Assembly (NCBI GenBank): GCA_002269645.1 | Contig: NIVC01000620.1 | Coordinates: forward strand, 310,001-374,000 | DNA from: Macrostomum lignano | Lineage: Eukaryota | Direction of reading: 5' to 3' | Length of the DNA: 64,000 nt | Shown here: in pieces, positions 13,760 to 63,515 of the stretch | Layout of the letters: the number at the start of each line of letters is the position of its first letter | Position numbering within the stretch: the stretch's first letter is position 1 | The notes under the pieces: generated by a model | What the model was told of the DNA's origin: nothing | Seen by the model: the letters and a program-made list of their open reading frames with translations, nothing else | The model's database searches: none | Translations under genes and position numbers: made by a program

Positions 13760-14249
13760 GTGAGTCGCTTTTGTCTATGGCAGTGAGCCAATATTGAGCA
13801 ACCATTTCGGATAGCAAAGATGCAGTTAAGAGAAGTAAGGGAAGATTTTTTTGATTCAGACGTCAATCAACTTCACTTCCTGTCTGCCTCCGGCTGATTT
13901 CCTATCACACTATCGAGCAGAGTTATAGAATCATTGCTAATTGCGCACTGGAACCACTTCATTCACCCTCTCTAACCCGCAAAAAATAAACTCGCATTTT
14001 AGCTGAAGAAAATTCACTTCCGTCACTGTATTATTATTGACTTCCTGCTTGCAGAGTTTTCTTGCCCAACTATTAATGTGTTGTGACCTGTGTCACAGTG
14101 CTCCCCTGGTGCAAGTGCACTTTGATAGTTGTTGACTTTGGTAGTTGATTATTGTTACCCCCCCCCCCCCCCCCGGCTCAAGCCAGTCTGGAGCTATGAG
14201 CCCTTTGGCTGAGCCTCTGCTCTCTTTCTCTCTCTCTCCCTTTGGCTAG

Positions 14250-14500
14250 CCGTGCTGATTGGCTGGGCCTCTGCTCTCTCTCCCTCTCCCTGGCCGTGCG
14301 CGCTTCCACCCTCCCCTCGCCGCAGCCAATCAGCTGTCAATCAGCTCCATTGTTTAAGCCCTTTCTCCCCCCCCTTGTTTGCGCCCCTGCCCCTTTTTAC
14401 TCGTTATTTAAGGCGACGCTCAGACCCCGCCCCTTTTCTCACCGTGCCTGCGCCCATTTGCGCCCACCGCGATAAATAAACGAACGTGACCAGCGATCAG
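14250..14500 (+). promoter_or_regulatory. LTR U3 core promoter elements
   Basis: Inverted CCAAT boxes (GCTGATTGGCT near 14254, AGCCAATCAGC near 14324); TATA-like/AATAAA GATAAATAAA at 14471-14480, about 28 nt upstream of an initiator-like TCAG immediately before the SL copy. Confidence 0.55.
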
Positions 14501-14542
14501 CCGTAAAGACGGTCTCTTACTGCGAAGACTCAATTTATTGCA
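14501..14542 (+). other. Spliced-leader (SL) sequence copy in the 5' LTR
   Basis: CCGTAAAGACGGTCTCTTACTGCGAAGACTCAATTTATTGCA matches 42 of 44 nt of the Macrostomum SL as recalled (…TTTATTGCATG). The terminal ATG is replaced (GCAATCG) and no GT donor follows. Confidence 0.85.
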
Positions 14543-14664
14543 ATCGATCGGCCTTCCCGTGTATGAGTGCTATAATCGACCCGGCCCGGTAAGCTGTCGA
14601 AACAATTGCCTGTGTTCCTCGGGGTCGCTCTCCTGATCTCTCTCTCTCTCACTCTCTCCTCAGT

Positions 14665-14865
14665 CTGACTCACCAGGCTGTCGAGTGGCCGACCGCCCGC
14701 AGCCCTCTCTCTCTTCCTTGACTCACCAGGCTGTCGAGTGGCCGCCCGCCCACAGCCCTCTCTCTTTTCCTTGATTCACCAGGCTGTCGAGTGGCCGACC
14801 GCCCGCAGCCCTCTCTCTCTTCCTTGACTCACCAGGCTGTCGAGTGGCCGCCCGCCCACAGCCGC
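14665..14865 (+). repeat. 53-bp tandem repeat x4 in the LTR (also about 22496-22695)
   Basis: TGACTCACCAGGCTGTCGAGTGGCC… units start at 14666, 14719, 14772 and 14825. Confidence 0.85.
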
Positions 14866-15032
14866 CCCTCCCCTCTCTCTCGACTTCTCAACCTTGACCT
14901 CCCCCCGAAGTGTCCGTACGCCTCGGGGTCGCCGATCGAGCTCGTAAGCCCTGGGCAGTCTAGTACCCGAACCCCGACACCGCTACCCGTCGCCCAACCC
15001 GGCCGTGCCAGCGAGGAAGGGGGATACAACAT

Positions 15033-15050
15033 TGGCGCCCGAACAGGGAC
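15033..15050 (+). other. Primer-binding site for tRNA-Lys(UUU)
   Basis: TGGCGCCCGAACAGGGAC starts 1 nt after the 5' LTR; the same 18-mer as the HIV-1 tRNA-Lys3 PBS. Confidence 0.93.
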
Positions 15051-15074
15051 TGCTCAGTTTGCTTGTGAGCTGTC

Positions 15075-16055
15075 ATGGCGAATGTGGACGAACTGATTCG
15101 GCTGCTAGCCGAGCGTCTGCGAGCGGATGGACCAGCCCAGCCACCGAGACTCCCGAAGCCCGTGAAGTACACGTCAAGCATGAATTTTCGACTCTGGCTG
15201 CGCTCTTTCAACGCTTATTGCGACTCCGCCGAGATTGACGAGGAGCATCGCCGCGAGCACTTGATGAGCATGCTGGATCTCGCTACGGCGTACGCTGCGG
15301 TCGATAATCTGAACCTGCCGGGACCCGACGATCCTGTGGATCCGCTGGACTACGAGGGATTCACCGCCCGGTTGGAGGCTCGCTTCTCCCGGTACCGGAC
15401 AGAGCAGGACAGCAAGGTCGAGCTAAAAACCCGAGATCAGAAGGATGGCGAGTCGTTGGAGGCCTACGCAGATGCTCTCCTTGAACTGGTGCGCTGTGCC
15501 TACCCGGCGGCAACTGCCGAGCTGCAGGACGACCTCGCGAAGGATCGCTTCATGCAAGGGGTGAGACTCTCCGACCTCCAGCGAGAGAAGCTCTACCTGC
15601 AGCAGCCCGAAGGTCTGGTGGCAGCACAACGCGCGGTGAGGCAGCTCGAGGCGGCGTCCAAGGCGGCGAAGGGACCGAGATCGGCTGGAGCAACTGGCAG
15701 CGGCCACCGAGGAGTCTTCGTGGTGAGCGGCGCGGCGGAATCTGTGCCTCGGGAGGATGGAGCCTACTCCCAAGAAAAGGACAAAGAGCTCGAGGAGTTG
15801 AAGAAACTGGTGAGGCAGCTTCAAGGCAAAGTGGTTCAGCTCGAGTCGCTGAGAGCGGAACCGCATAGCAGCGCCGCAGCTCGACCGACCGACTCCGACG
15901 AAGGCGACCATCAGAAGCCTCGACGAACGGGAGGAATTCGCTGCTTCTTCTGCAACAAGCCAGGGCACATCGCGACTAACTGCCCAACCCGTCAGCAACA
16001 GGGAAACGGCAAGGGGAACTTCCGCAGGGGCGAGGGAGTTCCGCCGAGACAGTAG
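15075..16055 (+). CDS. gag: Gag polyprotein (326 aa) with CCHC zinc knuckle
   Basis: ATG 24 nt after the PBS; C-X2-C-X4-H-X4-C motif CFFCNKPGHIATNC near the C-terminus. Confidence 0.93.
   Translation: MANVDELIRLLAERLRADGPAQPPRLPKPVKYTSSMNFRLWLRSFNAYCDSAEIDEEHRREHLMSMLDLATAYAAVDNLNLPGPDDPVDPLDYEGFTARLEARFSRYRTEQDSKVELKTRDQKDGESLEAYADALLELVRCAYPAATAELQDDLAKDRFMQGVRLSDLQREKLYLQQPEGLVAAQRAVRQLEAASKAAKGPRSAGATGSGHRGVFVVSGAAESVPREDGAYSQEKDKELEELKKLVRQLQGKVVQLESLRAEPHSSAAARPTDSDEGDHQKPRRTGGIRCFFCNKPGHIATNCPTRQQQGNGKGNFRRGEGVPPRQ
16001..16045 (+). promoter_or_regulatory. -1 programmed ribosomal frameshift signal
   Basis: G GGA AAC heptamer in correct gag phase (16001-16007), 7-nt spacer, 9-bp stem 16015-16023/16034-16042. 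The -1 frame is open from 15980 into the protease. Confidence 0.8.
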
Positions 16056-19000
16056 AGGCCCCAACCCGAGACGAAGATGCAGCCCCGGAGCGACGTGCAG
16101 CAGGATGTCCGGCGGACTGCTCAAGAGATAGAGATCAACCTGCAACAGCTTTTAATCCCGTGTCAATCTACGTGTCGGTAAAAATTGGCGAGATTGAGTT
16201 GCCGTGTCTGTTGGATTCGGGCTCGGTCATGTCGCTGGTGAACGAGAGGACCTGGCGGCAGTTGAGCAAGTCGGTTCGAGTTGAACTCAGCCCTTCGGAA
16301 ACCCACCTGATCTCAGCGAACGGAACTCCCATGAATGTGTTAGGATGCGCGTCGCTTCCCCTACAGTTCGGATCAGAAACTTTACAGACGCCAATTGCGG
16401 TGGTCCAAGGGGTCGGCTACGAACTGTTGCTAGGCACCGACTTCTTACGCCGCCACCGGTGCCAAATCGATTTCGCCGGAGGAGTTTTCCGCGTGAACGG
16501 TTCACGTGTGCCAATCCGAGAGACCAAGCACAAACCAGTCGTCTGCCGGTTGTACCTGAACGAAAACTTGATCATTCCGGCCAATCACGAACGGACCGTC
16601 TCAGCCAGGATTCGGAGAACAGCGACACAGAATTCCGGAGTGCTCGGCGTCGCCGAGCCAGACGAAAAACTGAAGAGCGATGAGAGACCAATGCTAGCCA
16701 GGAGCGTCTGCCTCATCCAGCAGGGCAACACCCTACCAGTTCACTTCGCGAATGTCACGGACTCCGAGCTGCGGCTGCGGAAGGGAGCTGTCATCGGCTG
16801 GTTTCGACCATCAGATCCGGCTCAAGAGGTTCTGGTAGCCAGCATCGAAGAGCAAGCGTCGGTTTTACGACCCAGCTGCGATCCATGGGACCCAGAGGCG
16901 GCACTGAACCAGCACGGCTCCAAGCAGCTCACGGGGGCAGACAAAGCGAGTTTCCTAAGATTGGTGAATCGATACGCAGATGTTTTCGCAGAGAGTACAG
17001 CGCGCCTCGGGACGACGGACATCGTGCAGCATGAAATTGAGACCACCGGAACAGCCGTAAAACAGCCTCCGCGACGGCTACCGCCACATTGGCGCGGCGA
17101 AGTCGACCGACAAATCGACGAGCTTTTGGCAACGAAGATGATTGAACCGACCCAATCGCCGTGGAGTTCGCCAGTGGTCTGTGTCCGTAAGAAGAATGGG
17201 GAACTGCGACTGTGTGTCGACTACAGAGAGTTGAATCAACGAACTGTCAAGGACGCCATAGCAATCCCGCGTGTCGATGACGCACTTGAAGCGCTCGGAG
17301 GTGCGGCTGTATTTTCGACGCTCGACCTTTGCTCCGGCTATTGGCAAGTTAAGGTCAAAAGGGAGGATCAAGAAAAGACTGCTTTTGTCATTCCGCATCG
17401 GGGCAATTCGCGTTCAAGGTGCTGCCCTTCGGATTGACCAATGCGCCGGCGACATTCACAAGGTTGATGAATATGGTACTACACGACCTTCTGTGGAAAA
17501 TGGCGCTCGTCTACATCGACGATATCATCATTTGGTCCCGAACTGTCAGCGAGCATCTAACGAATCTCGAGGCGGTATTCCAGCGCCTGCGCGCAGCCAA
17601 CTTGAGGCTAAAGCCATCTAAGTGCAGATTCCTGGCCGATGAGGTCAAATTCCTTGGCCACGTCGTGTCAAAGGACGGAATCGATGTCGACCCGGAGAAG
17701 ATCAAGGAAGTCCGTGACTGGAGCATTCCAAGAAATGCAAAAGACCTTCAGTCGTTCCTGGGTCTGGCTGGTTACTACCGAAACTTCATACCAGAATTCT
17801 CGATAGTCGCTGCACCACTTTTTGATCTGACAAAGAAAGACAAGCCGTTCAGTTGGAGAGAGGAACACGATGAGGCCTTCAAAAAGCTGAAAGAAGAATT
17901 GACCGGTTGCCGCGTGATGGCCTACCCGAACTTCGACCCCACGGCTGGTGAGTTCATCTTGGATACCGATGGAAGTACCCGACAGGGTCTCGGAGCAGTC
18001 TTGTCGCAGGTACAAGAAGACGGGTCAGAGCGGGTTATTGCGTACGGGAGTCGGCGTCTGCAAGGGGCCGAATTCAACTATTGCACGACACGAATCGAGC
18101 TCCTGGCGCTGGTGACATTCGCAGAGAGGTTCCGGTACTATCTACTTGGCCGGAGGTTCCGGGTGCGCACCGACCACGCAAGTCTGCAGTGGCTCCGAAG
18201 TATGAGGCAGCCGGAAGGCCAGTTGGCTCGGTGGATGGAGAGGTTGGCGCCATTCGACTTCGCAGTGGAGCATCGGCCAGGGGCGCGTCATCAGAATGCG
18301 GACGCGCTGTCACGCAAGCCGCGCGACGACATCCCGAAATGGATAACTGCCCGTCGTGCCGGACTGATGACCTCCCCGGGGTCAGGGTAACGACGCTGCT
18401 CGGGTTGCTCAGCCGAGATGAGCTGGCAGCAGCACAAGCTGTGGACAACGACATCGCTCCAGTTTACCAGTCGATGCACGCCGGCCGAGCAAACGAAGAG
18501 CCACCTCGGGGTGCGTCACCAACGACCCGAGCCATCTGGGCACAAAAGCCTCGGCTGGAAATTGTGGACAACACCCTCGTCATCAAGGATCTGGGACGTC
18601 ACCCACCGCGGGCTGTTCTCCCGAAGAAATTGATCCCCGACGCTCTGCAGACGCTGCACTCTGGACCAGGAGGTGGACACTTCGGCGTAGCAAAGACTCT
18701 GGAGAAAGTCAGGAACCGATTCTGGAGACCCGGCTTGAAGCGAGAGGTCGAGGAGTTTGTGCGAAGGTGTGACGACTGTAACCGGAGCAAGCCCGGGATG
18801 CGGCGGAAGGCCCCATTGGAGCCGATTCCCAGCAGCCATGTGTTTGAAAGAGTGATGGTGGATTTGATTGGACCACTGCCAACCAGCGTCCGAGGCAACA
18901 AATACATACTGACGATGCAGGACGCGTTCAGTAAGTGGCCAGTGGCAGTACCGGTGCCAGATCAGACGGCCAGCACCTGTGCAAGGGCAATGCTCGAGGA

Positions 19001-19976
19001 GTGGGTCTGTCACTACGGAGCCCCAGGAACAATCCACTCGGATCAGGGAGCCAATTTCGAGTCGCAATTGATCGGCCAGCTGTGCGAAAGTCTGAATATC
19101 CGAAAGACGCGTACGACCGCCTATCACCCCTCTGGAAACGGCCAAGTGGAAAGCTTCAATAAGACGCTGACTGCAGTGATCCGGGCGCACCTGGTGAAGG
19201 AGCCGGATCAGAGGCGGTGGGACGAATTCGTTGCCCCGGCGCTCATGGCGTATCGCTCCAGTGTGCACCGCGGCACCGGCTACTCACCCTTCTTCCTTCT
19301 GCATGGTCGCGAGATGTCTCTGCCAGTTGACTTGGGAGTGGCGCGCCCACTGGACATCGAACCGTACTGCGAGGAAGTCCAGAACCTGCGGGAGACGCTC
19401 GTGGAAGCCCATCGGGTGGTGCGTGAGAGAATAACGTCATATCAACGAGTGCAGAAAGACTGGTACGACCGGAAGGTGAAGGGTCGAGAATTCGTGGCTG
19501 GCGACGAGGTGTTCGTCTACAACCCCGTGTTGAAGGCCGGTGCCAAAGCGAAGCTCCACTCACCCTGGACCGGACCTGCCGTAGTTCTCGAGAAGCTGTC
19601 GGAGACGCGCTATAGGATTCGACAGGAAGGTCGACGGAAGCCGATCAAGGTGGTGCACTTTAACAACCTCCTGCCTCGGTACCGGAAGTACCCGGTCGAC
19701 GGCACCGGTGGCCCTCGGCGTCCTGCACCAAGGAGGTACCACCCAGGTCCTGCTCAAGAGACGGAATCCGTCAGGGAGGACTCGCAGGAATCGGACGATG
19801 AGGATGAGGAGCGATGGTGGCGACATTCCGGGCGGGTTCGAGAGGAGGGAGAACCAATGGATGTGCAGCAGCCAGGAGTGCAGCCGCAGCCGGAAGCGCC
19901 AGTTGAAGTCATCGAAGGTCGACCCCAGAGGGATCGAAGGGTTCCGCAGCGTTATGGAACGCCCGTTTATTATTAA
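16008..19976 (+). CDS. pol: Pol polyprotein (protease, RT, RNase H, integrase) with two single-base frameshifts
   Basis: LLDSGS protease; LDLCSGYWQ, LPFGL and YIDD in RT; DTDGS…GLGAVL, TDH and ADALSR in RNase H; HHCC, D-D-E and GPY/F-like WTGP in integrase. Frame breaks at a GGGG run (17400-17403) and a CCC run (about 18333-18335). Confidence 0.92.
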
Positions 19977-20026: not shown

Positions 20027-20195
20027 TAATTGGTTCGAAGCATCATCCGCGTCATCACCTGCGTCATCAACATTTGGTTCGAAGCATCATCCGCGTCATC
20101 ACCTGCGTCATCAACATTTGGTTCGAAGCATCATCCGCGTCATCACCTGCGTCATCAACATTTGGTTCGAAGCATCGTCTGCGTCATCACCCGCG
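20027..20195 (+). repeat. 44-bp tandem repeat (about 3.8 units) between pol and ORF3
   Basis: CATTTGGTTCGAAGCATCATCCGCGTCATCACCTGCGTCATCAA at 20071, 20115 and 20159. Confidence 0.85.
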
Positions 20196-20397
20196 TTATT
20201 GAAAACTGGGCTCGTGTTATTGCCTCTGCTTCACAAACAAAAATATATATTTCCCCTCTTAAGGCCCGTCAGTGGAGGTCCCACCTGCCCAACCCTGCCA
20301 TCAGGGATGAAGGATCGGCGCCCCAAAGAGGCTCGAAGGAACCATTGCCCTGCTCTCAAAAGTGAGTCGTGGTTGTTGCAGGCACTGCTTTCCGGGC

Positions 20398-21279
20398 ATG
20401 GACCTCTACGCCGAGTTTGGTGTCAGCCCCTTCGCGACGGAGGAGGAGCTGCGACGTGCGTACCGCCGTGAGAGCCTGCGACGGCACCCCGACAAGTGTG
20501 GACCCGGTGGAACGGAGAATTTCCAGAGGCTGCAGCATGCGAGTGCGGTCCTGCTGTGTCCGTTTCGACGAGCGCTGTACGACCGGTTCGGGCAGGATGC
20601 CGTTAGCAACCCGCTCGAGTGCGCCCGGTATTTTGTCCCGCCGGATGGGATGTGCGTCCCGGAGGAGTTTGTCGTAACGATTGAAGACGAAACAGAAGAG
20701 TCAGACGAGGACAGGGAGTCGGAAGGAAGCGAGCGTGGTGGTTGCGGCGGCGAGGAGACTGCTCAGAGCTGCTGTGAAATCACGCAGTCAGAGGAAGAAG
20801 AGCTCTTGAATGAATCCGACGGCGAAACTTCGATGTCAGAAGACGAACCGGAGCTCGTCATCGACCAACGGGAGTCGCCAGCGTGGCTGATGAGGAGCGA
20901 GCCGAGTACCGAGGTGGAATACACCTGGAGCGGGGAGGCAACGCAGCGAAGAGCTCGAATCCGGTCGGAGCTTCGGCACGCTTTGTTGTCGGGGAGTCCA
21001 GCTGCGATGTTCCGGCTTTTGACTGAAATGGTGGGACTGTGCGGCAGCGAGCGGCTGGATCATCGACGCGAAATCGCCGAGCTTTTGGCTCAGACTGTCA
21101 AGTTCATTCTCCGTGACATCAGCGCCAAGTGTCGGGGTCATGCTCGGCGTGTCTGGCGGCGGCCTGCCTTCAAGCGAAGCACTCGGTTCGTCATGAGTGT
21201 TGCGATCCCTCAGTTTGAACTAATCGACGGAGGACGCGTGTTGGGGTTGTTGCGCCGGGCGGCGGAGGTGGCGGTCTAG
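20398..21279 (+). CDS. ORF3: J-domain (DnaJ/Hsp40-type, HPD) protein, 293 aa, carried inside the retrotransposon
   Basis: N-terminal 65 aa DLYAEFGV…ELRRAYRRESLRRHPDK…FQRLQHASAVL…RRALYDRFG follows the J-domain pattern (HPD at 20485-20493); then an acidic linker and a predicted helical C-terminal region. Lies between pol and the 3' LTR. Confidence 0.88.
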   Translation: MDLYAEFGVSPFATEEELRRAYRRESLRRHPDKCGPGGTENFQRLQHASAVLLCPFRRALYDRFGQDAVSNPLECARYFVPPDGMCVPEEFVVTIEDETEESDEDRESEGSERGGCGGEETAQSCCEITQSEEEELLNESDGETSMSEDEPELVIDQRESPAWLMRSEPSTEVEYTWSGEATQRRARIRSELRHALLSGSPAAMFRLLTEMVGLCGSERLDHRREIAELLAQTVKFILRDISAKCRGHARRVWRRPAFKRSTRFVMSVAIPQFELIDGGRVLGLLRRAAEVAV

Positions 21280-21409: not shown

Positions 21410-21815
21410 CACTCTCGGCCATGCCCGGCGCTCTCGGTCGTTGCCCGGCATTCTCGGCCGCTGCCCGGCATTCTCGGCCGCTGTCCGGCACTCTCGGCCA
21501 TGCCCGGCGTTCTCGGTCGCTGCCCGGCATTCTCGGCCGCTGCCCGGCATTCTCGGCCGCTGTCCGGCACTCTCGGCCATGCCCGGCGTTCTCGGCCATG
21601 CCCGGCGTTCTCGGTCGCTGCCCGGCATTCTCGGCCGCTGTCCGGCATTCTCGGCCATGCCAGGCGTTCTCGGCCGCTGCCCGGCATTCTCGGTCGCTGT
21701 CCGGCATTCTCGGCCATGCCCGGCGTTTTCGGCCACAGTCCGGCATTCTCGGCCGTGCCCGGTGTTCTCGGCCTGTCCGACATCCTCGGCCCCTGTCCTG
21801 CGCTCTCGGCCGCTG
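21410..21815 (+). repeat. GC-rich 19-21-bp tandem array in the element's 3' UTR
   Basis: CCGGCATTCTCGGCCGCTGC / CCGGCGTTCTCGGCCATGC variants. Confidence 0.85.
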
Positions 21816-21906: not shown

Positions 21907-21917
21907 AGGGGGGAGGG
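21907..21917 (+). other. Polypurine tract
   Basis: AGGGGGGAGGG directly abuts the TG of the 3' LTR, preceded by a T run. Confidence 0.92.
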
Positions 21918-22861
21918 TGTTGTGACCTGTGTCACAGTGCTCCCCTGGTGCAAGTGCACTTTGATAGTTGTTGACTTTGGTAGTTGATTATTGTTACCCC
22001 CCCCCGGCTCAAGCCAGTCTGGAGCTATGAGCCCTTTGGCTGAGCCTCTGCTCTCTTTCTCTCTCTCTCCCTTTGGCTAGCCGTGCTGATTGGCTGGGCC
22101 TCTGCTCTCTCTCCCTCTCCCTGGCCGTGCGCGCTTCCACCCTCCCCTCGCCGCAGCCAATCAGCTGTCAATCAGCTCCATTGTTTAAGCCCTTTCTCCC
22201 CCCCCTTGTTTGCGCCCCTGCCCCTTTTTACTCGTTATTTAAGGCGACGCTCAGACCCCGCCCCTTTTCTCACCGTGCCTGCGCCCATTTGCGCCCACCG
22301 CGATAAATAAACGAACGTGACCAGCGATCAGCCGTAAAGACGGTCTCTTACTGCGAAGACTCAATTTATTGCAATCGATCGGCCTTCCCGTGTATGAGTG
22401 CTATAATCGACCCGGCCCGGTAAGCTGTCGAAACAATTGCCTGTGTTCCTCGGGTCGCTCTCCTGATCTCTCTCTCTCTCACTCTCTCCTCAGTCTGACT
22501 CACCAGGCTGTCGAGTGGCCGACCGCCCGCAGCCCTCTCTCTCTTCCTTGACTCACCAGGCTGTCGAGTGGCCGCCCGCCCACAGCCCTCTCTCTTTTCC
22601 TTGATTCACCAGGCTGTCGAGTGGCCGACCGCCCGCAGCCCTCTCTCTCTTCCTTGACTCACCAGGCTGTCGAGTGGCCGCCCGCCCACAGCCGCCCCTC
22701 CCCTCTCTCTCGACTTCTCAACCTTGACCTCCCCCCGAAGTGTCCGTACGCCTCGGGGTCGCCGATCGAGCTCGTAAGCCCTGGGCAGTCTAGTACCCGA
22801 ACCCCGACACCGCTACCCGTCGCCCAACCCGGCCGTGCCAGCGAGGAAGGGGGATACAACA
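21918..22861 (+). repeat. 3' LTR (944 bp)
   Basis: Preceded by a polypurine tract, followed by the AATG TSD; near-identical to the 5' LTR. Confidence 0.97.
22332..22373 (+). other. Spliced-leader (SL) sequence copy in the 3' LTR
   Basis: Identical 42-mer at the same offset within the LTR. Confidence 0.85.
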
Positions 22862-23089
22862 AATGCATGAAAACTGATTCTATTCTATTTCGTGCAACTT
22901 TTAGCTGCTGAGGAGACTTGAGAATGCTCAAAAAACTGTTTAAATCAAAATCTTAGCTCAGGTAGGCTGCTGAGATTTTTAGGCTGATTGTCGTGAAGTA
23001 ACTTCTAGACACTTTGATTGTGGACGGGAGATCCGGTTTTAAGAAACTTGCAACACTAAATAATAAACTCGAACAACGTAAATATAAAA

Positions 23090-42139: not shown

Positions 42140-42895
42140 ATGCAGACTTTGTCAATTCTGCCGCTGATTCTCTGCTGTTGCATCGCTCTCGGCCACTCGC
42201 TGGGCGCTGAATTCGGCCACTTGGGCTGCTTCGTGGACGAAGGAACTCCAAACCGAGACCTCACCGGTCTTGTTGGCTTGTCCACCATCGGGCCCCACTC
42301 GAAGACGCCGGGTGAGGGCGACGTCGCACATAGCAGCATGACTTTGGAGCTTTGCAGCGAAATCTGCGCCTATGGAAAATTCCGCTACTTTGGTGTTCAA
42401 AATTCAGCTGGTTGCTTCTGCGGAAACTCGTACGGCAAACACGGCAAGGCAGCCGACAGCGACTGCAACATGGCCTGCGCTGGAAACTCCGCCCAAATCT
42501 GCGGAGGGTCGGGGCGAAACTCCGTGTACCGGCAGGTCTACAATCGTCCAGGTGAGCGTAGCGGAATTTACAATCAATGCTGTTCTACTTTTACATGTAC
42601 ATGCACTTCCCCACTTGCCCACCAGAGTAGCGGAGCAGTCGATATCTCTTCTGTCTTTTCAGATAGCGAATATTTCGCTTTGGCTGACCGAGACTACGTG
42701 AACGTGACCTCTACCCGCGGGCCCTTCTACCGCACCGAGCAGCCCGTCAGGAGTCTGACTGAATGCCTACTAGCTCGCTGCGTCACAGACTGCCAGGCCG
42801 TGCTGTTCCTCCTGGACGCCTGCCACCTGCTGAGATTCCCCGTTCTGCCGCACGAGCTGAAGAACGTCACTGGGAAGTTCGCCACCCGCGTGTGA
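42140..42895 (+). CDS. Secreted WSC-domain protein with a C-terminal PAN/apple-like Cys module
   Basis: Signal peptide; HLGCFVD…LELCSEIC…FGVQ…CFCG…CNMACAGN…ICGG…RNSVY WSC pattern; probable in-frame intron 42552-42662. Confidence 0.88.
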   Translation: MQTLSILPLILCCCIALGHSLGAEFGHLGCFVDEGTPNRDLTGLVGLSTIGPHSKTPGEGDVAHSSMTLELCSEICAYGKFRYFGVQNSAGCFCGNSYGKHGKAADSDCNMACAGNSAQICGGSGRNSVYRQVYNRPGERSGIYNQCCSTFTCTCTSPLAHQSSGAVDISSVFSDSEYFALADRDYVNVTSTRGPFYRTEQPVRSLTECLLARCVTDCQAVLFLLDACHLLRFPVLPHELKNVTGKFATRV

Positions 42896-45445: not shown

Positions 45446-46591
45446 TCAGCCTTTCCAGAACAGATTGTCAAACGGCTTATTTGGCACAGGCTTGAGTACG
45501 TAGAAGGCCCCAGGTTTCCTGGGGTTAATTTTGCCCTTCTCAATCTGCAGAACGGCTCCATTGTTGTCGTGGGTGCCGCTGTAGCCCGGGGCGCTGAAGA
45601 CGGTGACGCAGTGCCGGTTTAGCAGCACGTGGAAGCCTTCTTTAGCTACCTGGTGGCCGCGGACAACAAAGCTGACCCCGAACTGTTGCAGCACCGAGTC
45701 CAGGGCCTCGCTAGAGAACAGAAACGAGCAACCGCGTTTCGTTGGCGCCCAGTTGATTTTGGTTTTCTCGCCGGTTATCTGGAAGTGGTCGTAGATGACA
45801 TTGTGCTGCGGATCTGCCCAGAGCAGGTCGCAGTGCACGCCGAACTGAGGCGGCTCGTACGGCCGGTCCATGCTGTTCAGAGCTTCAACACAGGCGTCCT
45901 GATCGCAGTCCAGAAATGGTGGCAGAGAAAAACTTGGCGATATGCCGCCGTGGCAGCAGAAGATCTGCCGGCCCACAACGGCACTCAGAGGCAGCCACTG
46001 GAAGCAGCGAAGGAAGCCGCGAAGCACCTGGATGCCTTTCTCCTCGCCGAAGCGCTGGTACAGCTCATCTTTGAAGCCGTACCGAAGGCAGACGTTGGCA
46101 GCTTCGTGATTTCCGCGCAGCAGGTAGACTGAGTCTGGATACAGCATCATTAAGCAGAGCAGGAGCATCATCACCTCAATTGAGTACTTGCCACGATCGA
46201 TGTAGTCGCCCAGGAACAGATAGCGAGTTGCGGGCGGCTGGCCCAGCCCGTCGAAGTAGCGCAGCAGGTCGTGAAATTGGCCGTGTATGTCGCCGACAAT
46301 GTTGACGGGAGTGCTCACTCGCAGGCAGGGGTTCGTGTGCCTGCTCATGTACATCAGGGCAGCGTGGCACAGGACTAGGCACTCTTGGGCTGTCACCTTT
46401 GGGTGATTCACAAAGTCGTCAACTGGGAAGCTGAGCAGCCTCATCGCAAACTCTTTGAGGTTAAGTTCGTCTCTGATCACCAGATTGCTGGACGATTCGG
46501 TATTGTGATTCGAGCGCGGACCCTCGGTGACGTCAAGGCCACCGCCGTCGTCCTTATTTGGATCCGCCGTAGATGGCGCTTCTTGATCCAT
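45446..46591 (-). CDS. PPP-family Ser/Thr protein phosphatase, divergent PP1-like, intronless (381 aa)
   Basis: GDIHGQ, GDYIDRG, LRGNHE, HGG, RGHQ and SAPGY motifs. Confidence 0.95.
   Translation of the reverse strand: MDQEAPSTADPNKDDGGGLDVTEGPRSNHNTESSSNLVIRDELNLKEFAMRLLSFPVDDFVNHPKVTAQECLVLCHAALMYMSRHTNPCLRVSTPVNIVGDIHGQFHDLLRYFDGLGQPPATRYLFLGDYIDRGKYSIEVMMLLLCLMMLYPDSVYLLRGNHEAANVCLRYGFKDELYQRFGEEKGIQVLRGFLRCFQWLPLSAVVGRQIFCCHGGISPSFSLPPFLDCDQDACVEALNSMDRPYEPPQFGVHCDLLWADPQHNVIYDHFQITGEKTKINWAPTKRGCSFLFSSEALDSVLQQFGVSFVVRGHQVAKEGFHVLLNRHCVTVFSAPGYSGTHDNNGAVLQIEKGKINPRKPGAFYVLKPVPNKPFDNLFWKG

Positions 46592-48466: not shown

Positions 48467-54623
<6,157 letters not shown>

Positions 54624-56088: not shown

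Positions 56089-63515
<7,427 letters not shown>

What the first reader, a model, noticed from the sequence alone, without database searches (positions are those of the whole stretch)
20398..21279. Gypsy element carries an intact DnaJ/J-domain (HPD) accessory gene in the env position
Seen: a 293-aa ORF between integrase and the 3' LTR with a complete J-domain (HPD-K at 20485-20493, YDRFG end), an acidic Ser/Glu linker and a novel helical C-terminus. It has no signal peptide or TM segment, and GC content similar to gag/pol. Known: J-domains recruit and activate Hsp70; polyomavirus T antigens use one to remodel host complexes; hepadnaviral RT activation and Argonaute/Piwi loading depend on Hsp40/Hsp70. 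Inference: the element encodes its own co-chaperone to direct Hsp70 to particle assembly/uncoating or RT, or to interfere with host silencing machinery. J-domain cargo is not a standard Metaviridae gene.
Basis: partly seen in the sequence, partly recalled or inferred. Interest (0 to 1): 0.9.

Follow-up and report, generated by a model that had tools for sequence, protein, structure and literature searches.

The report
Retrotransposons carrying their own Hsp70 co-chaperone
A whole branch of flatworm jumping genes carries an extra, selectively preserved gene with an Hsp70-recruiting J-domain and a new helical domain, and it likely aims the host's chaperone at nuclear complexes that silence the element.

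Summary
Confirmed, and larger than reported. ORF3 (20398-21279) is an intact J-domain gene (PF00226, E 1e-12; HPDK) between integrase and the 3' LTR of a young Ty3/gypsy element (LTRs without substitutions, 4-bp target duplication). It is no one-off capture: all 7 lineages of one RT clade (95/95) in this genome carry an ORF3 homolog in at least one copy (27-36% identity), 5 near-outgroup rows do not, and dN/dS between sister families is 0.13-0.26. The C-terminal part is a confidently folded five-helix domain without a known relative. Sister lineages add an HP1-like chromodomain or a degenerate TatD-like domain; many linkers hold a SUMO-interaction-like motif. A model supports J-Hsp70 binding (0.65 against control 0.02), a textbook pair. 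Best reading (0.45): a nuclear adaptor that sends Hsp70 against silencing complexes, like polyomavirus T antigen; RNA export and particle chaperoning remain open. Against: many copies lack ORF3, one lineage lost HPD, splicing was not seen, no target is shown. Side finding: this family's LTR holds a 43-nt copy of the host spliced leader.

The parts
14075..14078 (.). Target-site duplication AATG (left); right copy 22862-22865
   Evidence: sequence
14079..15031 (+). 5' LTR (TGTTGT...ACAACA), 953 bp
   Evidence: 0 substitutions in 944 columns against the 3' LTR
14405..14410 (+). TATTTA, TATA-like box found in the LTRs of 6 of 6 families examined
   Evidence: promoter function inferred
14500..14542 (+). 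43-nt copy of the host spliced-leader exon, lacking its last two bases (TG); second copy 22331-22373
14589..14593 (+). Candidate splice donor GTAAG, 156-229 nt after TATTTA in 6 of 6 families
   Evidence: use not shown (no joint to ORF3)
15033..15050 (+). Primer-binding site TGGCGCCCGAACAGGGAC (tRNA-Lys type: recalled, not tested)
   Evidence: sequence
15075..16055 (+). gag, 326 aa, one CCHC knuckle
16229..19976 (+). pol (protease-RT-RNase H-integrase order), in three frame pieces in this copy
   Evidence: protease domain seen in an unbroken natural copy
20379..20381 (+). Candidate splice acceptor CAG, 16 nt before the ORF3 ATG
   Evidence: YAG 0-20 nt before the ATG in 8 of 8 families or subfamilies, directly adjacent in 4; use not shown
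20398..21279 (+). ORF3, 293 aa: J-domain, conserved helical extension, acidic disordered linker, five-helix C-domain
20398..20592 (+). J-domain (residues 1-65), HPDK at 20485-20496
20671..20691 (+). SIM-like motif VVTIEDE (residues 92-98)
   Evidence: motif defined after inspection, function untested
20944..21276 (+). C-domain (residues 183-293): five helices with a basic loop ending in Trp; no known family
21907..21917 (+). Polypurine tract AGGGGGGAGGG
   Evidence: sequence
21918..22861 (+). 3' LTR, 944 bp

Best explanation
ORF3 is a clade-wide, selected accessory gene of Ty3/gypsy retrotransposons whose product is likely a nuclear adaptor: its J-domain is predicted to recruit and activate host Hsp70, and its other modules would aim that chaperone at repressive chromatin or RNA complexes on the element's own loci, keeping the element expressed. 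SHOWN: presence, position, clade-wide retention, purifying selection, intact HPD in 6 of 7 lineages, extra chromodomain or TatD-like domain in sister lineages. PREDICTED: five-helix C-domain fold; J-Hsp70 docking through HPD. INFERRED: expression from a spliced subgenomic RNA (LTR donor to the acceptor before the ATG); nuclear location; targeting through SUMO (SIM-like motif), heterochromatin (chromodomain) or nucleic acid (basic loop, TatD-like domain); disassembly of a silencing complex by Hsp70, as polyomavirus T antigen does to Rb-E2F (recalled).
For: Family: 14 full-length ORF3 matches at 99-100% without stops, plus full-length matches at 34-35%. Context: integrase directly upstream in 15 of 17 divergent ORF3 stretches, LTR pairs in 10 of 17. 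RT tree: 24 of 32 rows form a 95/95 clade of 7 lineages, each with an ORF3 homolog in at least one copy; 0 of 5 near-outgroup rows have one within 5.5 kb. dN/dS 0.13-0.26 over whole ORF3 in 7 of 8 within-lineage pairs with J and other parts aligned, 0.06 in the eighth; J-domain 0.05-0.14 in the 5 divergent pairs where dS was computable. HPDK invariant in 10 of 10 aligned proteins. Complex model with a host cytosolic Hsp70 (EEVD end): ipSAE 0.65 against best control 0.02, runs agree in at least 91% of contacts, partner pLDDT at least 81, residues 30-33 at the interface; the mark was reached by 51 of 78 solved and 2 of 108 mismatched microbial pairs (eukaryotes 71 of 105 and 2 of 126). A like complex is solved, so this shows likeness, not binding. 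Nuclear pointers: chromodomain PF00385, E 1.4e-12, nearest Swi6/HP1, in one lineage and in an unnamed relative; SIM-like motif in 10 of 16 proteins against about 2.9 expected from shuffles, absent from both chromodomain-bearing proteins. Context from papers: planarian DNAJA1 stabilises nuclear PIWI, which directs H3K9 methylation of transposons (PMC11663942, passages).
Against: No target is shown, and the C-domain has no informative match. The window's own ORF3 has no chromodomain; that module is in 1 of 7 lineages and keeps only two of three cage aromatics. The SIM pattern was defined after seeing it, and the rows are related. One lineage (L134/L136/L147) keeps an open 558-aa ORF3 without HPD, so Hsp70 activation is not universal. 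10 of 15 newly fetched in-clade copies gave no ORF3 profile hit, among them a multi-copy subfamily (L130-L132) that keeps at most the TatD-like tail: ORF3 may be dispensable in cis. dS is near saturation in most pairs. No joint from the LTR donor to the acceptor appeared in 4 contig sets. Open frames alone do not show selection, since the copies are very young. Broad anti-silencing proteins are rare among transposons (PMC6719617, passages).
Confidence: 0.45

Rival explanations
1. Rev/CERV-like export factor: ORF3, made from a spliced RNA, binds the unspliced genomic RNA through its basic loop and uses Hsp70 to free it from splicing or retention complexes for export.
For: LTR donor in 6 of 6 families and an acceptor before ORF3 in 8 of 8 make the genomic RNA intron-containing. 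Arg-rich loop with Trp in the C-domain. Precedent: CERV of C. elegans Cer1 (PMC10309623, abstract).
Against: Does not explain the HP1-like chromodomain. No RNA element identified. Splicing not seen. No likeness to CERV was tested.
Confidence: 0.2
2. Cytoplasmic co-chaperone for particle assembly, uncoating or RT activation.
For: Intact J-domain and predicted Hsp70 docking. J-domains in 11 RNA virus families are proposed to aid polyprotein folding or assembly (10.1101/2022.02.15.480533, passage). Hepadnaviral RT depends on Hsp40/Hsp70 (recalled).
Against: The modules added in sister lineages (chromodomain, SIM-like motif) are nuclear in kind. Near-outgroup elements with similar RT (52-56% to the window) lack the gene. 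A chromodomain could still serve integration targeting if ORF3 rides with the pre-integration complex.
Confidence: 0.2
3. Decoy of small-RNA loading: ORF3 competes with host DNAJ proteins for Hsp70 and destabilises or mis-loads PIWI/Argonaute.
For: Planarian DNAJA1 is needed for PIWI stability (PMC11663942, passages). The J-domain is nearest class A/B J-domains among solved structures.
Against: A pure decoy would not need a conserved C-domain (dN/dS about 0.2) or a chromodomain. A global block would release all transposons (PMC6719617).
Confidence: 0.1
4. Passenger: a recently captured host DNAJ fragment without function.
For: Many copies lack or break ORF3.
Against: Retained across lineages whose synonymous sites are nearly saturated, with dN/dS 0.13-0.26. 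The C-domain was found only in these elements and a few unnamed relatives. Intronless, with clade-wide splice-like signals.
Confidence: 0.03

Closest known systems
Additional sense ORFs (ORF3) of Ty3/gypsy elements, e.g. bdelloid GDSL-esterase and DEDDy-exonuclease ORF3s (PMC5408684, abstract) and plant aORF-3S (PMC7264820, passages)
   Same: Non-envelope gene between pol and the 3' LTR; captured cellular domains; a nuclease-derived module occurs in both.
   Different: The cargo here is a J-domain on an unknown helical domain, with lineage-specific chromodomain or TatD-like additions. No J-domain appears in what I saw of those papers.
Polyomavirus large T antigen (J-domain noted in 10.1101/2022.02.15.480533, passage; mechanism recalled)
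   Same: N-terminal J-domain with HPDK, followed by an acidic disordered linker with a short motif, then a folded effector domain.
   Different: No LxCxE motif in 5 of 5 intact ORF3 proteins, no helicase or origin-binding domain. A likeness of logic, not of descent.
CERV of C. elegans Cer1 (PMC10309623, abstract)
   Same: Accessory regulator of an animal LTR element, made from a spliced RNA (inferred here).
   Different: CERV's export role is shown; here no function is shown. The abstract mentions no J-domain, and sequence likeness was not tested.
VANC anti-silencing proteins of VANDAL DNA transposons (PMC6719617, passages)
   Same: Transposon-encoded accessory protein proposed to undo silencing of its own family.
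   Different: Plant DNA transposon acting on DNA methylation. Here an animal LTR element, with Hsp70 recruitment as the inferred means.
Host class A/B/C J-domain proteins (DNAJB1 nearest)
   Same: J-domain fold (rmsd about 1.3-1.7 A over about 66 columns), HPD motif.
   Different: No G/F region, zinc finger or DnaJ_C domain; by layout a class C-type protein. The donor gene is unresolved.

Membership tests
Ty3/gypsy (Metaviridae) LTR retrotransposon | Paired LTRs with TG...CA ends, target duplication, PBS, PPT | tested here: met
Ty3/gypsy (Metaviridae) LTR retrotransposon | pol order protease-RT-RNase H-integrase | tested here: met
Ty3/gypsy named clade (Mag, CsRN1, Gmr1/Osvaldo, Mdg3) | RT groups with reference elements | not tested
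   no reference RT set was on hand; the paper's consensus sequences were not in the supplements I searched
env of errantiviruses/retroviruses | Signal peptide and transmembrane anchor, fusion ectodomain | tested here: not met
   highest hydropathy window 1.08-1.45 in 5 intact ORF3s; no env family in Pfam
J-domain protein (PF00226) | Profile match above the curated cut-off over the whole domain | tested here: met
   48.2 bits against 27.8, profile 1-63 of 63
J-domain protein (PF00226) | HPD between helices II and III, basic helix II | tested here: met
   not met in lineage L134
J-domain protein (PF00226) | Stimulates Hsp70 ATPase | not testable with these tools
   docking model only
Class A/B Hsp40 | G/F region and DnaJ_C client domain | tested here: not met
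   only PF00226 found
Polyomavirus T antigen | LxCxE Rb-binding motif; origin-binding and helicase domains | tested here: not met
HP1-type chromodomain (sister lineage L044) | PF00385 match | tested here: met
   E 1.4e-12; nearest Swi6/CBX1/CBX5
HP1-type chromodomain (sister lineage L044) | Three-residue aromatic cage for H3K9me | tested here: not met
   Tyr and Trp kept, third position Val (Leu in P0008)
TatD nuclease (sister lineages L134, L040/L041) | PF01026 match | tested here: inconclusive
   31.9 and 32.7 bits (above cut-off 27) in L040 and L041; 22-23 bits (below) in L134 and L136
TatD nuclease (sister lineages L134, L040/L041) | Metal-binding His and ETD residues | tested here: not met
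   GE kept, His and ETD replaced in L134: likely inactive
Any solved fold, for the C-domain | Structural match standing above background | tested here: inconclusive
   best Z 8.6 (rmsd 3.1, 89 aligned), within helical-bundle background; no Foldseek hit at E<=0.001
Heat-inducible (HSE-bearing) LTR families of M. lignano | Canonical HSE in the LTR | tested here: not met
   0 strict or one-mismatch HSEs in 7 of 7 LTRs (definition from PMC12801592)

The most novel reading that the evidence does not exclude
An animal LTR-retrotransposon clade evolved a T-antigen-like, modular anti-silencing machine: a J-domain that sends Hsp70 to dismantle SUMO- or HP1-marked repressive complexes on its own loci, with interchangeable address modules (SIM, chromodomain, dead TatD), while at least two lineages also took the host spliced leader into their LTRs so that their RNAs pass as host messages.
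Probability: 0.3. Interest if true: 0.93.

Novelty: new variant of a known kind. Interest (0 to 1): 0.8.

Why it matters
Transposon-encoded counter-defence proteins are rare and mostly known from plant DNA transposons; J-domain hijack of Hsp70 is known from polyomaviruses and some RNA viruses. A clade of animal LTR elements that has kept a J-domain gene over long divergence, and swapped chromatin- and nucleic-acid-type modules onto it, gives a direct handle on how retroelements answer piRNA and heterochromatin silencing. The host is a flatworm with RNAi and transgenesis, so the question is testable. The gene also hides in public gene models as 'J domain-containing protein', which inflates host DNAJ counts. 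The spliced-leader copy in the LTRs is a separate, testable case of host mimicry or capture.

Tried and rejected
C-domain searches: single-sequence search of residues 150-293 found 0 of 1502 candidates. The Atlas gave no usable hit twice. The profile against 1.84 billion representatives gave 9 hits: 8 real relatives (2 labelled M. lignano gene models fused to pol, 4 Logan, 2 JGI, unnamed) and 1 repeat protein judged false. Two further profile searches added only M. lignano records, P0008 again and ordinary DnaJs. The contigs of the two JGI proteins were not found, so the context and species of the unnamed relatives are unknown; viral contigs were not scanned. Fold searches: no match above background. 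Heat-shock link: no HSE in the LTRs, rejected. Expression: no holder is on record as RNA; contigs of 3 of 4 guessed-RNA runs cover gag, pol and ORF3 and the fourth covers parts, which is not counted as evidence either way. The joints from 14542 to 19865, 20697 and 21208 were rejected as host SL-bearing transcripts with 21-22-nt chance matches (higher depth than the element where given, unrelated sequence beyond). J-domain donor: element J-domains lie on one side of a branch at only 61/88 and in 56% of bootstraps against 10 host rows, so a single capture is not excluded but not shown by J alone. Deep co-phylogeny of RT and ORF3: inner branches open. Intactness as evidence of selection: rejected, because LTR pairs differ by 0-2 substitutions in 10 of 11 copies and 4 of 14 copies with full-length pol are unbroken over about 4 kb, a break rate not clearly above ORF3's. 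My first idea that the SL always sits at the R/U5 border did not hold for the second lineage, where AATAAA follows the SL copies. Earlier scan notes: none on this genome or sequence; four notes on other accessory ORFs were not used.

Full report
Observation. The 293-aa ORF at 20398-21279 is there and carries a complete Pfam J-domain (E 1.2e-12), with HPDK at 20485-20496. It lies inside a full Ty3/gypsy element: LTRs 14079-15031 and 21918-22861 without substitutions, target duplication AATG, primer site, purine tract, gag, and pol in protease-RT-RNase H-integrase order. Pol of this copy lies in three frame pieces. No hydrophobic segment is present, so it is not an env. Homologous database records are labelled Macrostomum lignano, and the LTR holds that species' published spliced leader.

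The family. A search of the own genome gave 148 matches (134 of 233 candidates scored, so a lower bound): 14 full-length at 99-100% without stops and many full-length at 34-35%. Of 17 held copies of the window's family, 13 have the full 293 aa from the ATG, one has a 10-aa deletion, one an altered start, two are frameshifted. LTR pairs differ by 0-2 substitutions in 10 of 11 copies measured, so the family is very young and intactness proves little.

The clade. Of 20 stretches fetched around weaker matches, 3 were ordinary host DNAJ genes. Of the other 17, 15 had integrase directly upstream and 10 had paired LTRs. An RT-RNase H tree of 32 rows puts 24 in one clade (95/95) of seven lineages, 55-65% identical to the window. 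Each lineage has an ORF3 homolog in at least one copy, and none of five near-outgroup rows has one within 5.5 kb. Against this, 10 of the 15 in-clade copies newly fetched by RT likeness gave no ORF3 profile hit: some are cut by other insertions, some deleted, and one multi-copy subfamily keeps at most the tail. Inner branches are open, so deep co-descent of RT and ORF3 is not tested. The same J plus C-domain layout occurs in six unnamed public proteins (two are fragments without J) whose species and context I could not obtain.

Selection. Nei-Gojobori counts between related families give dN/dS of 0.24 (window vs L032, 267 codons; J 0.14, C-domain 0.20, linker 0.46), 0.18 (vs L031), 0.16, 0.13, 0.16 and 0.23 for other divergent pairs, and 0.26 and 0.06 for two close pairs; integrase gives 0.07-0.11 for the window's sister family. 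In the divergent pairs dS is 1.3-2.6, near saturation, several partners are broken copies, and the method is simple; the raw proportions (pS 0.63-0.73, pN 0.18-0.31) carry the same message.

Anatomy. AlphaFold2 gives a J-domain with a helical extension to about residue 95, disorder over 97-175 and a helical C-domain. The C-domain alone folds confidently into five helices (pLDDT 94, pTM 0.85) with a conserved basic loop ending in Trp. It has no Pfam, sequence or fold match above background. HPDK is invariant in 10 of 10 aligned proteins. A complex model of residues 1-95 with a host cytosolic Hsp70 (L122) scored 0.65 against a best control of 0.02, with HPDK and helices II-III at the interface. 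J-Hsp70 complexes are solved, so this shows that the surface still looks canonical, not that it binds.

Modules in sister lineages. Lineage L044 inserts a chromodomain nearest Swi6/HP1 between J and the C-domain; two of three cage aromatics remain. Lineages L134 and L040/L041 append a TatD-like domain, with metal ligands replaced in L134, and L134 has lost HPD while keeping a 558-aa open frame. A hydrophobic-then-acidic motif of SUMO-interaction type (type recalled) occurs in 10 of 16 proteins against about 2.9 expected by shuffling, and in neither chromodomain-bearing protein; I defined the pattern after seeing it. No LxCxE motif was found.

Expression. Six of six LTR families have TATTTA followed 156-229 nt later by GTAAG, and a YAG lies 0-20 nt before the ORF3 ATG in eight of eight families or subfamilies, directly adjacent in four. 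This suggests a spliced subgenomic RNA, as for env. Contigs from four guessed-RNA runs showed no such joint; contigs drop rare forms. No heat-shock element was found in seven LTRs.

Mechanism. The constant core is J plus C-domain; the variable parts are chromatin-, SUMO- or nucleic-acid-type addresses. I read this as an adaptor that brings Hsp70 to a nuclear complex on the element's own chromatin or nascent RNA, most likely a silencing complex (0.45). RNA export (0.2), particle or RT chaperoning (0.2), a PIWI-loading decoy (0.1) and a passenger (0.03) are the rivals. No step beyond presence, conservation and predicted structure is shown.

The spliced leader. One search showed depth of about 3,000-85,000 in one LTR bin against about 1-90 elsewhere, with adapter ends and many 3' partners. 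The 43 nt at 14500-14542 are identical to the start of clustered SL RNA genes in this genome (SL, then GTAAG and hairpins) and hold 33 of the 35 nt of the published leader (PMC8629364, passages), lacking the final TG. It is in every held LTR of this family that matched (15 of 16 other copies) and in none of the other families' held stretches. A different LTR type, 85% like the L036 LTR in its 3' part, also holds the SL, once with a second, decayed copy. Capture by reverse transcription of a trans-spliced RNA is the likely origin (inference); about 30% of Hydra transposon long reads carry an SL (PMC12220107, passage).

Literature. Ten full-text searches found no LTR retrotransposon with a J-domain gene and no SL inside an LTR; for most hits I saw only the listing and the start of the abstract. 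The 2025 M. lignano LTR paper (PMC12801592: parts 1-3 of 6 read, term search, supplement 1 read, five supplements term-searched) has no DnaJ, ORF or spliced-leader mention in its main text; its supplement lists DnaJ only as a label of host transcript clusters. The DARTS paper has no DnaJ mention (term search). The 2020 classification paper by Biryukov et al. was not held, and subscription journals and Repbase-type records are not searched, so prior notice is possible. Also seen: PMC10309623 and PMC5408684 (abstracts), PMC7264820, PMC6719617, PMC11663942, PMC13524379 and 10.1101/2022.02.15.480533 (passages). T-antigen and hepadnavirus mechanisms are recalled.

Verdict. Real, selected and clade-wide: a new variant of the known 'extra ORF3' kind, with an unknown domain and a testable counter-silencing hypothesis. 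Interest 0.8.

Noticed in passing
window 14500-14542 and 22331-22373: Both LTRs hold a 43-nt copy of the host spliced-leader exon, starting about 20 nt after AATAAA and ending 46 nt before a GTAAG donor; copy L060 keeps the leader's final TG.
   Followed up: partly
L110 (LTR about 660-1560; SL near 1011-1103) and L108 (about 600-1404): A second LTR type, related to the L036 J-ORF3 lineage in its 3' part, holds the full spliced leader; L110 has a second, decayed copy behind it, like serial SL relics.
   Followed up: partly
G000 C1211-C1214, C3830, C4525, C4853 (L067-L072): Clustered SL RNA genes about 11-19 kb apart, in two variants that differ upstream of the shared core.
   Followed up: partly
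L074, L079, L082, L085, L086: SL followed directly by mRNA-like sequence in genomic DNA: likely retrocopies of trans-spliced transcripts, several of one source.
   Followed up: no
L075, L081 (L112:1132-1166): A repeated element holding the SL core in yet another context; no gypsy protein match within the fetched stretch.
   Followed up: partly
L134:2885-4561, L136, L147; L040, L041: ORF3 variants with a C-terminal TatD-like, likely inactive nuclease domain; the L134 lineage lacks HPD.
   Followed up: partly
L044 / L046 ORF3 residues 151-201; P0008, P0012: HP1-like chromodomain inside ORF3 rather than on integrase, where chromoviruses carry it (recalled).
   Followed up: partly
window 20040-20190 and 21410-21800: Short tandem repeats flank ORF3 (about 44-nt and 19-20-nt units); their number varies among copies, and related families also have tandem arrays after ORF3.
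   Followed up: no
L018, L043 vs L036, L044: Primer-binding sites differ among lineages of the clade (TGGCGCCCGAAC, TGGTGCCGTGACC, TGGCATCCTTGGTGGG), so primer tRNA has switched; seen for the window, L043 and L044.
   Followed up: no
L128:2800-5500, L146:2680-5500: In-clade copies cut by insertions that encode Polinton/adintovirus-like proteins (likeness recalled, not tested); L129 is cut by a Penelope-like RT.
   Followed up: no
window 45446-46591 (-): Intronless PP1-like phosphatase ORF (PF00149), 381 aa, a possible retrogene.
   Followed up: no
window 42140-42895 (+) and 51380-51880 (-): Two secreted-looking WSC-domain ORFs; also an F-box exon (48467-48805) and GPR180/TMEM145 exons (61031-61564).
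   Followed up: no
G000 C94, C337, C339, C8, C9, C1066, C1993 (L120-L127): At least 17 full-length intronless Hsp70 matches, some in inverted pairs.
   Followed up: no
public records P0001, P0004, P0011, P0012: Element ORF3s are in public databases as host gene models ('J domain-containing protein'), some falsely fused to pol or host exons.
   Followed up: yes
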